This document shows positions 31,146 to 61,124 of a stretch of DNA of 64,000 nt, piece after piece. The position numbers and the translations under genes were made by a program. The stretch covers positions 36,890,001-36,954,000 of the forward strand of contig OX597820.1 of assembly GCA_951406725.2 (NCBI GenBank). The letters run 5' to 3'. The notes under the pieces were generated by a model that saw only the letters and a list, made by a program, of their open reading frames with translations, did no database searches and had not been told where the DNA came from. Origin of the DNA: Octopus vulgaris. Taxonomy: Eukaryota. Positions within the stretch are counted from its first letter, which is position 1, and each line of letters starts with the position of its first letter.

Positions 31146-32579
31146 CTATTTCTCTTGTTTTATGGTTTGTTTTGCATGCACCTTTTGCTTGTGATTAGTC
31201 AAACTCCTTTTTATAGAGAAAGTTTTATCACAGATATCGCAACCATACGGTTTCTCACCTGTGTGAACAGGTTTGTGACGAGTTAAATGCTGATTATCAG
31301 AGAAGGTTTTACCACAAATATCACAACTAAATGGTCTTTCACCTGTGTGGCCACGTAGATGAATTTTTAAATGTGTGCTCTGAGTGAATGCCTTCCCACA
31401 AACATCACAACGATGTGGATGCTCACCTGTGTGAACAGGCTTGTGACGAGTTAAACTTTGGTTGTCAGCATAAGCTTTACCACAAATATCACAGCTATAT
31501 GGCCTTTCACCTGTATGCCCACGTATATGAATTGTTAAATGACCTCTTTGAGTGAATGTTTTACCACATATATCACAGTGGTGTGGCTTCTCACCTGTAT
31601 GAACCCGTACATGTTGAGTTAAATGACTATTTTGAGAAAATGTTTTACCACAGGTGTTACAGTGGTATGGTTTCTCACCTGTGTGGATGCGTATGTGATT
31701 AGTTAGTCTACTACTGCTAGAGAATGTTTTACCACAAATATCACAGTGGTATGGTTTATTTCCTGTGTGACCTTGTACATGACTAGTCAAACTATTATAT
31801 CCAGAGAAAGTTTTACCACAGATATCACAATGGTATGGTTTTTCCCCAGTGTGAATACGTTTGTGATTTGTCAAAGTACTTCTTCCAGAGAATGCTTTCC
31901 CACAGACATCACAACGATGTGGCTTTTCATTTGTGTGAACTGATTTGTGAACATTCAAATAAGAGCTTCGAGAGAATGTTTTACCACAAATACCACACTG
32001 ATATGGTTTCTCTCCTGTATGAATAAGTTTATGACGAGTTAAACTGTCAATCTGTGAGAATGATTTCCCACAGATTTCACAGCGGTGTGGTTTCTCTCCT
32101 GAGTGAATATACTTGTGTCTACTCAAATGACCATACTGTGTGAACCTTCTGCCACAAACCTTACAATGATATGGCTTTTCATCAGTATGAATACGTCTAT
32201 GATTAGTCAAAGTGCTGCTCTGAGAAAAGGTTTTATCACAAATGTCACATCGATATGGTTTAATACTTCTGTGTATAGTTCTGTGCCTTCTCAGATAACA
32301 TCTCCGAGAAAATATTTTACCACAAATTAAGCATTCAAAATCAGTCTGATCTGACTGAACACCCTTAGAGAATGAACGGTTTTTAACAGATGTTTTGTTA
32401 CACATTTTGGAATATTTAAGCTTTATGCTTGTAAGAAGGACATTATATTGTGAGAATGTCTTCTTACGAATGTCAAAATGATATGCTTTCTTCTGTGTAT
32501 CTACACACTCCTGATTAGTTATGTCATCAGATTCAGGTTGTTTTTCACATGCCTGGCTCTCCTCCAGTTTATCCTCCAT
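31146..32579 (-). CDS. ZNF-C: tandem C2H2 protein, 14 fingers, 477 aa (longest paralogue)
   Basis: Intact ORF; MEDKLEESQAC start; TGEKPY linkers. Confidence 0.93.
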   Translation of the reverse strand: MEDKLEESQACEKQPESDDITNQECVDTQKKAYHFDIRKKTFSQYNVLLTSIKLKYSKMCNKTSVKNRSFSKGVQSDQTDFECLICGKIFSRRCYLRRHRTIHRSIKPYRCDICDKTFSQSSTLTNHRRIHTDEKPYHCKVCGRRFTQYGHLSRHKYIHSGEKPHRCEICGKSFSQIDSLTRHKLIHTGEKPYQCGICGKTFSRSSYLNVHKSVHTNEKPHRCDVCGKAFSGRSTLTNHKRIHTGEKPYHCDICGKTFSGYNSLTSHVQGHTGNKPYHCDICGKTFSSSSRLTNHIRIHTGEKPYHCNTCGKTFSQNSHLTQHVRVHTGEKPHHCDICGKTFTQRGHLTIHIRGHTGERPYSCDICGKAYADNQSLTRHKPVHTGEHPHRCDVCGKAFTQSTHLKIHLRGHTGERPFSCDICGKTFSDNQHLTRHKPVHTGEKPYGCDICDKTFSIKRSLTNHKQKVHAKQTIKQEK

Positions 32580-34321
32580 GATTTTCTTACAAATATTTTA
32601 AAATTTTTTATTTAATTTCAAATGTGTACTGAAAGAAACTGAATTCTCTGAAACTTTTCAATAAATATTTACCATGTATTTTCTCTTACTGAGAAAAAGA
32701 AAACATGATATTTGACAAAGTCTGTAGATGTCTCAATTGTAAAGAAACAGATTTAAGATATTTTATTGGGACAGTTTCTCTTGCTAGAGTTCAATCTTGA
32801 AATTAAAAATCAGCAACTTGAAAACTCACTCCAGTTCTCAAGCTATACAGATAGGAAAAAGTTCCCATCAAAACAAATGAAATCTTCATGTTCCACAACT
32901 CAATTATAGACTGTTTACAGCTTTAATTTTAATTTCACAAAAGATCAAGGTTATAACGCTGGTTGGTGTTATTAAGGGTATCCAGCCATGAAAACACTAC
33001 CAAAACAGTGAAACCTGGTGCAGTCTTCTGCCTAGCTAGCCCCTGTCAAACTGTCCAACCCATGCCAGCATGGAAAACAGATGTTAAATGATGATGATGA
33101 AAGAACAATTAATAGGTTTCTTGATAATGTCCGTTTTCTGTTTTCAAAATCTGACAAAGTTCTTTATAAATCTTGAATCTGCAATGAAAAGGTAACAGAA
33201 AAGTTATTAGAGAGGAGGGACTCGACCAGAGACACTAACTGTCAGAATAATAAAGAAAAATCAGAAACTGTGTATAAAGGAAAGACACAATAGGAAGGAC
33301 ATTTATCAAAACTCTAAAGCAGGGATAATAGTAATGAGATACACATACATAAAAATAATAACAGGAGCTTTTGGTGGAATTAAAATACAGAATGTTTTTA
33401 GTAAGGTTATGAACACTCAGAATACCATTACTATGAAAGTTAAGTTAGTACTAACATCTTTAATGTTGGGGAAAAGAGAAAGCAAACCTTAAAAATAATT
33501 AACTTGTTAAATAAACGAAAGAACAACAATATCTAGTGACTAATATCATATTATTTTAAATGAGTTTTAAGCCTATTACTACCTCACCAGCAATGTACAG
33601 ATTTCACAGTATATGCTAATGTCATGATGGCGAAACTACAAACTTTATACTATATACTTGGTTATAAAGGATATCAACAGCATGTAAAATGTTTTGAACT
33701 TCTTATAAAATATACTTCACATATGAGGTTATAATAAAGCTGAAACGTACAATTTCTTCAATCATGAAACAATTCCTGAATCTCAATCAAGTTGTAATGA
33801 TATTAAAGAAACCAGTTCTTATTAATTAACCAGCCAGCTATAAGGAGAAAAGTCTGTAGCATCATTTGGTAGCTGGAGTTTTGTAGTAGTACTATAAAAT
33901 GCAACTTTAATTGTGACATGAGACCAAGTCACTCTTGTAGGAACCTGCTAACACTCATTCCCATTCTATTCATTGGAATTTCATACATTTGGAGAGATTG
34001 TAAAAGTTTCAGCAAAAAGATGAATGTTTGTAACATCATCCTGCCAAACTACAGCTGTCAATGGCAATTAGTATCAGTTTCAACTTGGCTTCAGTTGCAA
34101 TGCAAGTAGTATCATTTAAACATATTATAATGCATGTGTATAAAGACATTGTGAACGATAACTATTTCAGCAAGGCACTCAATAATCTAAAGATTGCCAA
34201 ATAGTTACGTGTATGCTTCGCTGATGAACTCATAATAATGGAAATAATTTTAATCAGTTACTAATAATTTTTTTCTCATTGCACACACATATATATATAT
34301 ATATATATATATATATATATT

Positions 34322-59903: not shown

Positions 59904-61124
59904 ATGGAGGATAAACTGGAGGAGAGCCAGGCATGTGAAAAACAACCTGAATCTGATGACATAAGTAATCAGGAGTGTGTAGATGCACAGAAGAAACCAT
60001 ATCGTTTTGTCATTCGTAAGAAGACTTTCTCACAACATAGTGTCCTTCTTATAAAGCTTAAATATTCTAGAACTATACACAGAAGTATTAAACCATATCG
60101 ATGTGACATTTGTGATAAAACCTTTTCTGAGAGAACCACTTTGACTAATCATAGACGTATTCATACTGATGAAAAGCCATATCATTGTAAGGTTTGTGGC
60201 AGAAGGTTCACACAGTCTGGTCATTTGAGTAATCACAAGTATATTCACTCAGGAGAGAAACCACACCGCTGCAACGTCTGTGGGAAATCATTCTCACAGA
60301 TTGGCAGTTTAACTCGTCACAAACTTATTCATACAGGAGAGAAACCATATCAGTGTGGTATTTGTGGTAAATCATTCTCTCGAAGCTCTTATTTGGATAG
60401 TCACAAATCAGTTCACACAAATGAAAAGCCACATCATTGTGATGTCTGTGGGAAAGGATTCTCTGTAAGAACTACTTTGACTAATCACAAACGTATTCAC
60501 ACTGGGGAAAAACCATACCATTGTGATATCTGTGGTAAAGATTACTCTGCATATAATACTTTCACTAATCACATACAAGGTCACACAGGATATAAACCAT
60601 ACCACTGTGATGTTTGTGGTAAAAAATTTACTAGCAGTAGTAGACTAACTAATCACATACGCATCCACACAGGTGAGAAACCATACCACTGCAACACCTG
60701 TGGTAAAACATTCTCTCGAAATGGCCATTTAACTCAACATCTACGGGTTCATACAGGTGAGAAGCCACACCACTGTGATATATGTGGTAAAACATTCGCT
60801 CTTAGAGGTAATTTAACAGTTCATATTCGTGGGCATAAAGCTGACAACCAAAGTTTAACTCATCACAGACCTGTTCGTCATTGTGATGTTTGTGGGAAGG
60901 CATTCACTCAGAGCACACAATTAACAATTCATCTACGTCGCCACACAGGTGAAAGACCATTTAGTTGTGATATTTGTGATAAAGCATTTTATGATAAGCA
61001 GGGTTTGTCTCGTCACATGCCTGTTCACACAGGTGTGAAACCATATCATTGTGATATCTGTGATAAAACTTTCTCTACAAAAAAGGTTTTGATCAATCAC
61101 GAGCAAAAAGCACATAAAAAGTAA
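59904..61124 (+). CDS. ZNF-F: tandem C2H2 protein, 12 intact plus 1 broken finger, 406 aa
   Basis: ATG homologous to the paralogues at 59904 (the ORF track starts at an upstream TTG); a CAA>TAA change removes the final QTIKQEK. Confidence 0.9.
   Translation: MEDKLEESQACEKQPESDDISNQECVDAQKKPYRFVIRKKTFSQHSVLLIKLKYSRTIHRSIKPYRCDICDKTFSERTTLTNHRRIHTDEKPYHCKVCGRRFTQSGHLSNHKYIHSGEKPHRCNVCGKSFSQIGSLTRHKLIHTGEKPYQCGICGKSFSRSSYLDSHKSVHTNEKPHHCDVCGKGFSVRTTLTNHKRIHTGEKPYHCDICGKDYSAYNTFTNHIQGHTGYKPYHCDVCGKKFTSSSRLTNHIRIHTGEKPYHCNTCGKTFSRNGHLTQHLRVHTGEKPHHCDICGKTFALRGNLTVHIRGHKADNQSLTHHRPVRHCDVCGKAFTQSTQLTIHLRRHTGERPFSCDICDKAFYDKQGLSRHMPVHTGVKPYHCDICDKTFSTKKVLINHEQKAHKK

What the first reader, a model, noticed from the sequence alone, without database searches (positions are those of the whole stretch)
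31146..61124. Recognition helices diverge much faster than scaffold or flanks among very young ZNF paralogues: candidate KRAB-independent arms-race array
Seen: ZNF-C, -D and -F sit in duplicated blocks whose non-coding flanks align almost base for base, and their linkers and Cys/His scaffold barely change. Helix positions -1 to +6 differ repeatedly, often by several nucleotides per codon. Homologous fingers C/D/F read QIDSLTR/EMGSLSL/QIGSLTR, RSSYLNV/RSSYLNN/RSSYLDS, GRSTLTN/IRTSLTS/VRTTLTN, GYNSLTS/GYNPFTN/AYNTFTN, SSSRLTN/TSSDRTH/SSSRLTN, QNSHLTQ/HKNSLTL/RNGHLTQ and QRGHLTI/QRGHLRV/LRGNLTV. The last three fingers of D and F have identical helices. Known: positions -1, 2, 3 and 6 contact DNA; the same signature marks TE-targeting vertebrate KRAB-ZNFs; coleoid cephalopods have large clustered C2H2 expansions. 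Inference: positive selection on binding specificity, possibly against the young TE families that surround these genes.
Basis: partly seen in the sequence, partly recalled or inferred. Interest (0 to 1): 0.78.

Follow-up and report, generated by a model that had tools for sequence, protein, structure and literature searches.

The report
Octopus zinc fingers under positive selection
Two young copies of an octopus zinc-finger gene changed their DNA-reading residues several times faster than neutral DNA while a third copy stayed like the ancestor, which likely gave them new binding targets, possibly transposons, though the targets are untested.

Summary
C, D and F are young paralogues (flanks 2-6% apart) in a tandem cluster of 34 C2H2 arrays in an Octopus genome, and all seven quoted helix triplets match. 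Codon models give dN/dS about 3.7 at contact positions -1/2/3/6 across C/D/F (p about 5e-6, double-nucleotide changes allowed). The burst sits on the D/F lineage (about 11, 95% range about 5-30). C is not above 1 on few changes, and older branches are under purifying selection (0.37). Zinc ligands are unchanged, all six coding deletions keep the frame, and F-exact contigs occur in a probable RNA run, so decay does not explain it. Gene conversion explains only part: D/F's last two fingers came from the B/E type, and removing such tracts strengthens the signal. Corrections: non-contact surface residues are also fast, multi-nucleotide codons are a minority, and unguided M7/M8 loses significance once double changes are allowed. 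No KRAB is present. The transposon target is untested; only a mariner burst of matching age is suggestive. Vertebrate poly-ZF paralogues show the same signature, and the idea is already proposed for octopus; my searches found no earlier dN/dS test in octopus.

The parts
31146..32579 (-). ZNF-C coding sequence, 14 C2H2 fingers; keeps ancestral-type helices
41674..42858 (+). ZNF-D coding sequence, 11 intact fingers; fingers 1-2 lost by a 195-nt in-frame deletion, finger 11 broken by in-frame deletions; most changed helices
59904..61124 (+). ZNF-F coding sequence, 12 intact fingers; finger 1 lost (126-nt in-frame deletion), finger 11 broken; stop 7 codons earlier than D, after the last His
59373..59903 (+). 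5' untranslated part of the single long exon of F, after a pyrimidine tract and AG at 59371-59372; the same acceptor is present in D and deleted in C
   Evidence: RNA status of the run is a guess
42680..42840 (+). Conversion tract in D (approximate ends): last two fingers are B/E-type, between C-like sequence on both sides
60967..61121 (+). Same B/E-type conversion tract in F (approximate ends), shared with D
42391..42420 (+). 30-nt beta-hairpin tract in D copied from the next finger (5 changes, none at contact positions)
28252..39631 (-). Duplicated block around C, inverted copy of 52920-64000
52920..64000 (+). Duplicated block around F
39675..43018 (+). Shorter duplicated block around D, matching 57975-61305; begins next to the end of the C block
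9854..11026 (+). ZNF-A, older paralogue used as outgroup; helices close to C despite synonymous difference of 0.34-0.40
17989..19137 (+). ZNF-B finger ORF; its N-terminal motif lies in another frame; donor type for the D/F tail; same-age control with E
43239..45590 (+). ZNF-E, broken copy of B (frameshifts, mariner insertion); approximate end
44046..45338 (+). Full-length mariner-type element with terminal inverted repeats and TA duplication; family of 94-97% identical copies across the genome

Best explanation
After a recent duplication, the lineage leading to D and F accumulated amino-acid changes at its DNA-reading positions far above the neutral rate while C stayed close to the ancestor, which likely reflects selection for new DNA targets, with young transposon sequence as the most probable but untested target. 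Shown: the rate excess, its confinement to D/F, intact zinc ligands and reading frames, in-frame loss of fingers, and a conversion that brought in two B/E-type fingers which then also changed. Inferred: altered binding specificity (from established C2H2 structure) and C covering the old function. Untested: the target and any repressive activity. My odds: positive selection on D/F about 0.85; retargeting rather than detuning about 0.7 given that; TE as the driver about 0.45.
For: Fixed-site MG94 fits on C/D/F give contact dN/dS 3.7-4.0, p 1e-7 to 5e-6, under two frequency models with and without double-nucleotide changes. The result survives dropping each of 12 fingers, masking conversion tracts, dropping D's two most changed fingers, and using D vs F alone. 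Branch fit on fingers 2-12 with A and G as outgroups: D/F contact 11.0 (p 1e-10), C 0.67, old branches 0.37 (p 1e-4 below 1); synonymous tree length 0.07 matches the flank 0.063; profile range about 5-30. D/F lineage 84 N vs 13 S, peaking at -1 (9), 3 (9) and 6 (10), with 0 at Cys/His. Same-age B/E pair: 0 changes on 68 contact N sites. 6 of 6 coding deletions in D/F are in frame vs 6 of 20 upstream indels being multiples of 3. Simulated conversion gives contact-N/S about 0.6 vs 2.4 observed. No closer genomic match to D's central fingers than F and C among 40 scored of 1422 candidates. F-exact contigs across the exon in run X17. A mariner family at 94-97% identity matches the duplication age.
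Against: Unguided site tests are significant only without double-nucleotide changes (M7/M8 p 0.003, then 0.29; M1a/M2a 0.008, then 0.30). Only 13 synonymous changes calibrate the D/F lineage, so the value is imprecise, and the C estimate rests on a handful of changes. Non-contact surface positions are also above 1, so selection is not purely on base contacts. Derived contact residues are only marginally more typical of working fingers than random changes (p 0.055), and some look damaging (Leu4 to Arg in D, Leu4 to Phe in D/F, Pro at position 3 in D). The rest of this cluster is conservative at contact sites (0.34-0.76), which is unlike a standing arms race. No motif match to TEs for C, D or F (low power). 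Expression of C and D is not shown.
Confidence: 0.68

Rival explanations
1. Selection is real but has nothing to do with transposons: D and F were retargeted to host regulatory sites, for example in neural or developmental genes.
For: Episodic, asymmetric burst with conserved older paralogues. Cephalopod C2H2 expansions are expressed in nervous tissue (PMC12513265, part 1 and passages). Emerson and Thomas name this alternative (PMC2604467, passage). No TE motif signal.
Against: ZNF number tracks retroelement number, and predicted octopus ZNF motifs are enriched in TEs (PMC10547256, abstract and section 6). A mariner burst of the same age.
Confidence: 0.3
2. Selection favoured detuning: redundant D/F copies were selected to stop competing with C for its sites, so changes weaken rather than redirect binding.
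For: Many contact changes go to small or non-polar residues (Arg6 to Leu or Asn, His3 to Ser, Ser3 to Gly); core Leu changes; finger losses; excess also at backbone-facing positions 5 and the residue before Phe.
Against: One or two changes, or loss of expression, would suffice, yet changes continued on both terminal branches. Zinc ligands and frames are kept. Some changes add specifying residues (Gln to Arg at -1, His to Asn at 3, Arg to Asp at 3).
Confidence: 0.15
3. Neutral processes only: relaxed constraint plus gene conversion and multi-nucleotide mutation mimic selection.
For: Conversion did occur. M7/M8 is lost with double changes. One contig in two DNA runs joins an F-type finger to a D-type finger, which is either recombination or an assembly join.
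Against: Relaxation cannot exceed dN/dS 1. The contact rate is about 5 times the flank rate. Masking tracts raises the estimate. Conversion simulations predict fourfold fewer contact changes per synonymous change. B/E shows no helix hypermutability. The A>G share matches opportunity (p 0.83).
Confidence: 0.1
4. C, D and F are assembly artefacts or uncollapsed haplotypes.
For: High flank identity.
Against: Different orientation, block length and insertions. D-specific and F-specific pieces occur together in DNA runs X1 and X6, the latter under another organism label.
Confidence: 0.03

Closest known systems
Vertebrate poly-ZF / KRAB-ZNF recent paralogues (Emerson and Thomas 2009, PMC2604467)
   Same: Tandem clusters; positive selection concentrated at -1, 3 and 6 among recent duplicates; purifying selection once stable; finger gain and loss; short conversion tracts.
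   Different: No KRAB, SCAN or BTB domain here; whole ORF in one exon; a mollusc, whereas the two invertebrate sets they tested (fly, mosquito) were not significant; targets unknown.
Zebrafish FiNZ-ZNFs and the metazoan ZNF-TE conflict model (Wells et al. 2023, PMC10547256)
   Same: KRAB-less ZNF expansion with positively selected young paralogues; the paper already predicts octopus ZNF motifs enriched in TEs and reports variable base-contacting residues.
   Different: Their dN/dS tests were on zebrafish only; no FiNZ-like Pfam hit here; TE repression is shown by knockdown in fish and not tested here.
Octopus-specific C2H2 expansion clusters (Holzinger et al. 2025, PMC12513265)
   Same: Same gene class and genus; lineage-specific clustered duplicates.
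   Different: That paper treats phylogeny and expression; the word 'selection' occurs once in its text. The young D/F burst and mosaic structure are not described in what I read.
PRDM9 zinc-finger array (recalled; only search listings seen)
   Same: Contact residues change fast.
   Different: No KRAB/SSXRD/SET part; fingers within C/D/F are mostly about 60-80% alike and keep positional identity, so there is no minisatellite-like homogenisation.

Membership tests
Tandem C2H2 poly-zinc-finger genes | Repeated C2H2 fingers with TGEKP-type linkers | tested here: met
   Pfam PF00096 and PF13465 with 10-14 stretches in A, C, D, F
Coleoid/octopus C2H2 expansion | Dense cluster of ZNF genes in an Octopus genome | tested here: met
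   34 arrays in 464 kb; 7 of 9 looked-up N-terminal homologues are named Octopus proteins, 2 unnamed
KRAB-ZNF | N-terminal KRAB domain | tested here: not met
   No KRAB hit in 4 of 4 N-termini; F's ATG follows an in-frame stop within one exon crossed by unspliced contigs. The genome-wide KRAB search was blank but so was its control, so it is inconclusive
KRAB-ZNF-like adaptive paralogues (works like) | dN/dS above 1 at helix positions -1, 3, 6 among recent duplicates | tested here: met
   unguided M7/M8 is not robust
KRAB-ZNF-like adaptive paralogues (works like) | Finger gain/loss among paralogues | tested here: met
   14, 11 and 12 fingers through in-frame deletions
TE-silencing ZNFs | Sequence-specific binding to TE families | tested here: inconclusive
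   Crude recalled recognition rules, no match above shuffles for C, D, F; low power
TE-silencing ZNFs | Repression of TEs through a corepressor-recruiting domain | not testable with these tools
   Needs knockdown or tethering; the shared N-terminal motif is only a candidate
TE-silencing ZNFs | Expression in germline or early embryo | not tested
   Run tissues are not given; only F-exact contigs in probable RNA runs
PRDM9 | PR/SET and SSXRD domains with a homogenised finger array | tested here: not met
   No such hit in the N-termini; fingers keep positional identity

The most novel reading that the evidence does not exclude
Octopus has its own KRAB-independent transposon-defence system, in which single-exon ZNFs carry a short N-terminal motif (M-E-x-K/E-L-C-x-x-x-V) as an effector tag, and D/F are members caught being retargeted, by point change, finger deletion and finger swapping, against a mariner or other family that spread at the same time.
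Probability: 0.2. Interest if true: 0.82.

Novelty: new member of a known kind. Interest (0 to 1): 0.55.

Why it matters
Why octopuses have over a thousand C2H2 genes is debated: neural regulation or TE defence (PMC12988792, section 2.4). This locus gives direct sequence evidence that the vertebrate-style adaptive signature operates in a mollusc without KRAB. It also offers a clean test trio: ancestral-like C against derived D and F, a few percent apart, so a binding assay can show what the new targets are.

Tried and rejected
Protein homology searches for orthologues of C: the first returned only generic ZNFs, none named as octopus, the second nothing, so no cross-species dN/dS. Genome-wide KRAB search: blank with a blank control. 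No RNA holder was on record for the D region. Runs X11 and X13, guessed as RNA, covered intronic sequence like the DNA runs, so they say nothing on D expression. As a silent-stretch control, X17 had depth in 19 of 30 bins and none in several unique upstream bins, whereas X7 covered 30 of 30; a hole in contigs proves nothing alone. Crude motif scan with recalled Zif268-type rules: 8 tests, none for C/D/F; A vs mariner p 0.01 uncorrected, not pursued. A>G excess as an editing-linked signal: explained by opportunity. Pairwise gene alignments in the C27/C29 clusters gave contact ratios of mostly 2-3 but align non-positional fingers, and the output was partly cut, so they were not used; a spanning-tree version replaced them. 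My intact/broken flags were not checked. Aligning C fingers 13-14 with D/F was dropped. A high mariner coverage figure was not borne out: 3 copies lie in the 1 Mb fetched. A genome-wide count of the N-terminal motif was not obtained. Earlier scan findings: none. codeml was not available; the models are my own implementation, with naive empirical Bayes only.
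Full report
Setting. The window lies at G000:C7:36890001-36954000 in a 2.8-Gb genome. It holds six C2H2 arrays, A-F, inside a cluster of 34 arrays in the 464 kb examined. 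A profile of the shared N-terminal 40 residues found 21 proteins; of the 9 looked up, 7 are named Octopus zinc-finger proteins and 2 are unnamed. The genus is therefore Octopus.

Observation. The seven quoted helix triplets and the three identical terminal D/F helices are correct. C sits in an 11-kb block that is an inverted copy of F's block; D's 3.3-kb block is a direct copy. Flank substitution divergence is 1.9-6.1% (C-F), 5.0% (D-F) and 3.5% (C-D), with a three-way tree of about 0.063 per site. Counting methods give contact-site pN of 0.21-0.34 against pS of 0.05-0.11. The scaffold claim holds for zinc ligands and linkers only, and multi-nucleotide codon changes are a minority (39 nucleotides over 33 contact codons).

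Selection. In my own MG94-type models, contact positions chosen in advance (-1, 2, 3, 6; 48 of 329 codons) have dN/dS 3.7-4.0, p 1e-7 to 5e-6, under two frequency models and with or without double-nucleotide changes; structural positions are about 0.19. The result holds when each of 12 fingers is dropped, when tracts are masked, and for D vs F alone (p 2e-4). Unguided tests are weaker: M7/M8 p 0.003 and M1a/M2a p 0.008, falling to 0.29 and 0.30 with double changes, although high-posterior sites stay enriched at contact positions (11 of 48 vs 7 of 281; 6 of 48 vs 4 of 281 with double changes). A model-free check gives 37 changes on 120 contact sites against 7.6 expected from the flanks.

Asymmetry. 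With A and a paralogue 108 kb upstream (G) as outgroups, the tree is ((D,F),C). For fingers 2-12 with D's converted hairpin masked, contact dN/dS is 11.0 on the D/F branches (p 1e-10; profile range about 5-30), 0.67 on C and 0.37 on old branches (p 1e-4 below 1); other surface positions are 3.4 on D/F (p 0.001). Synonymous tree length there (0.07) equals the flank value. By parsimony D/F carry 84 replacement and 13 silent changes; the sister rows (C, or B for the last two fingers) carry 3 and 4. Positions -1, 3 and 6 lead, the pattern reported for vertebrate paralogues (PMC2604467, section read). Positions 9 and -2, which set finger geometry (PMC7293014, passages), also changed (3 and 4 times).

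Controls against neutral causes. The B/E pair, of similar age and with E broken, has 0 replacements on 68 contact sites. All 6 deletions in the D/F coding regions keep the frame, against 6 of 20 upstream indels. Conversion is real: the last two fingers of D and F match B/E (1 silent difference each for D) between C-like sequence on both sides, and a 30-nt hairpin in D came from the next finger. Most multi-change helix clusters have no in-register donor among 385 fingers. No genomic match to D's central fingers is closer than F and C among the 40 candidates scored of 1422. Random conversion predicts 0.6 contact replacements per silent change against 2.4 seen. The converted fingers then gained further replacements.

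Reality and expression. D-specific and F-specific pieces occur in DNA runs X1 and X6, the second under another organism label; X1 may not be independent of the assembly. In X6 a D-type contig has Thr for the Pro at position 3 of one finger and Tyr for His at position 6 of the next, so contact sites still vary between samples. Run X17 holds seven listed contig pieces over F's exon, six exact and one with a single difference, each distinguishable from D and C. One leaves the genome at an AG after a pyrimidine tract at 59371-59372. A second study (one sample) holds an exact 59493-59780 piece. RNA status is the tool's guess. Expression of C and D is not shown; C has lost that acceptor by a 51-nt deletion.

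KRAB. None is found in the four N-termini scanned, and F's ATG follows an in-frame stop within one exon. The N-terminus is a short acidic motif followed by decayed fingers (inference).

Generality. A crude spanning-tree test on near-identical fingers gave contact ratios of 1.1-1.7 in three finger sets from C27 and C29 (8 of 9 settings p<0.05), against 0.34-0.76 for this cluster without C/D/F. Those regions were picked from search hits, and finger shuffling confounds them. D/F are thus an outlier locally, within a family where contact excess seems common.

Target. The mariner in E has 38 other full-length copies at 94-97% among the 40 scored of 3098 candidates, about the age of the duplication. 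That is coincidence in time only. The motif scan was negative and weak. Whether the changes redirect or weaken binding is open (p 0.055).

Literature. Wells et al. (PMC10547256; abstract, outline, sections 6, 7, 17 read; supplements not seen, and their Data 3 and Fig. S8 bear on octopus) already argue for ZNF-TE conflict including octopus, with dN/dS tests on zebrafish only. The BioEssays review (PMC12988792; passages and section 2.4) states the two rival readings. Holzinger et al. (PMC12513265; part 1 of 7 and passages) and Whitelaw et al. (PMC7656900; passages) report no such test in what I read. Searches found no dN/dS test of octopus ZNF paralogues and no described cephalopod N-terminal motif; the library lacks many subscription papers, and I did not see the 2015 octopus genome paper.

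Verdict. A real, well-controlled case of episodic positive selection on young KRAB-less octopus ZNFs: a new member of a known kind. The TE arms race is plausible and unproven. Interest 0.55.

Noticed in passing
N-termini of A, C, D, F and cluster genes in L011-L045; also L050-L063 and L092: A short N-terminal motif (M-E-x-K/E-L-C-x-x-x-V) starts 19 genes picked by pattern in this cluster, genes on C27 and C29, and named proteins of three Octopus species; no Pfam match. Candidate effector or degron, or just shared descent.
   Followed up: partly
L050-L063 (G000:C27:24190001-24330000): About 14 very young ZNF paralogues with 5-35 fingers, constant first and last fingers and a shuffled, internally duplicated middle; looks like rapid array remodelling by finger duplication.
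   Followed up: partly
window 44046-45338: Full-length mariner-type element inside ZNF-E, from a recent genome-wide burst (94-97% identity).
   Followed up: yes
window 17700-18000: B's N-terminal motif is out of frame with its finger ORF, so B may be truncated or a pseudogene, yet a B/E-type gene donated fingers to D/F.
   Followed up: partly
window 42063-42222: Runs X1 and X6 both give a contig that is F-type in one finger and D-type in the next: a recombinant allele or an assembly join across a 35-nt identical stretch.
   Followed up: partly
window 39631-39716: C and D blocks meet head to head at a short repeat-like junction; D carries only about 1.5 kb upstream of its acceptor, so its promoter and first exon are unclear.
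   Followed up: no
window 59373-59903: The 530-nt 5' untranslated part of F's exon holds 9 upstream ATGs and a repeat fragment.
   Followed up: no
window 12441-13456 and 21761-23461: Inverted duplicate of about 1 kb at 3.5% divergence, with an insertion in one copy.
   Followed up: no
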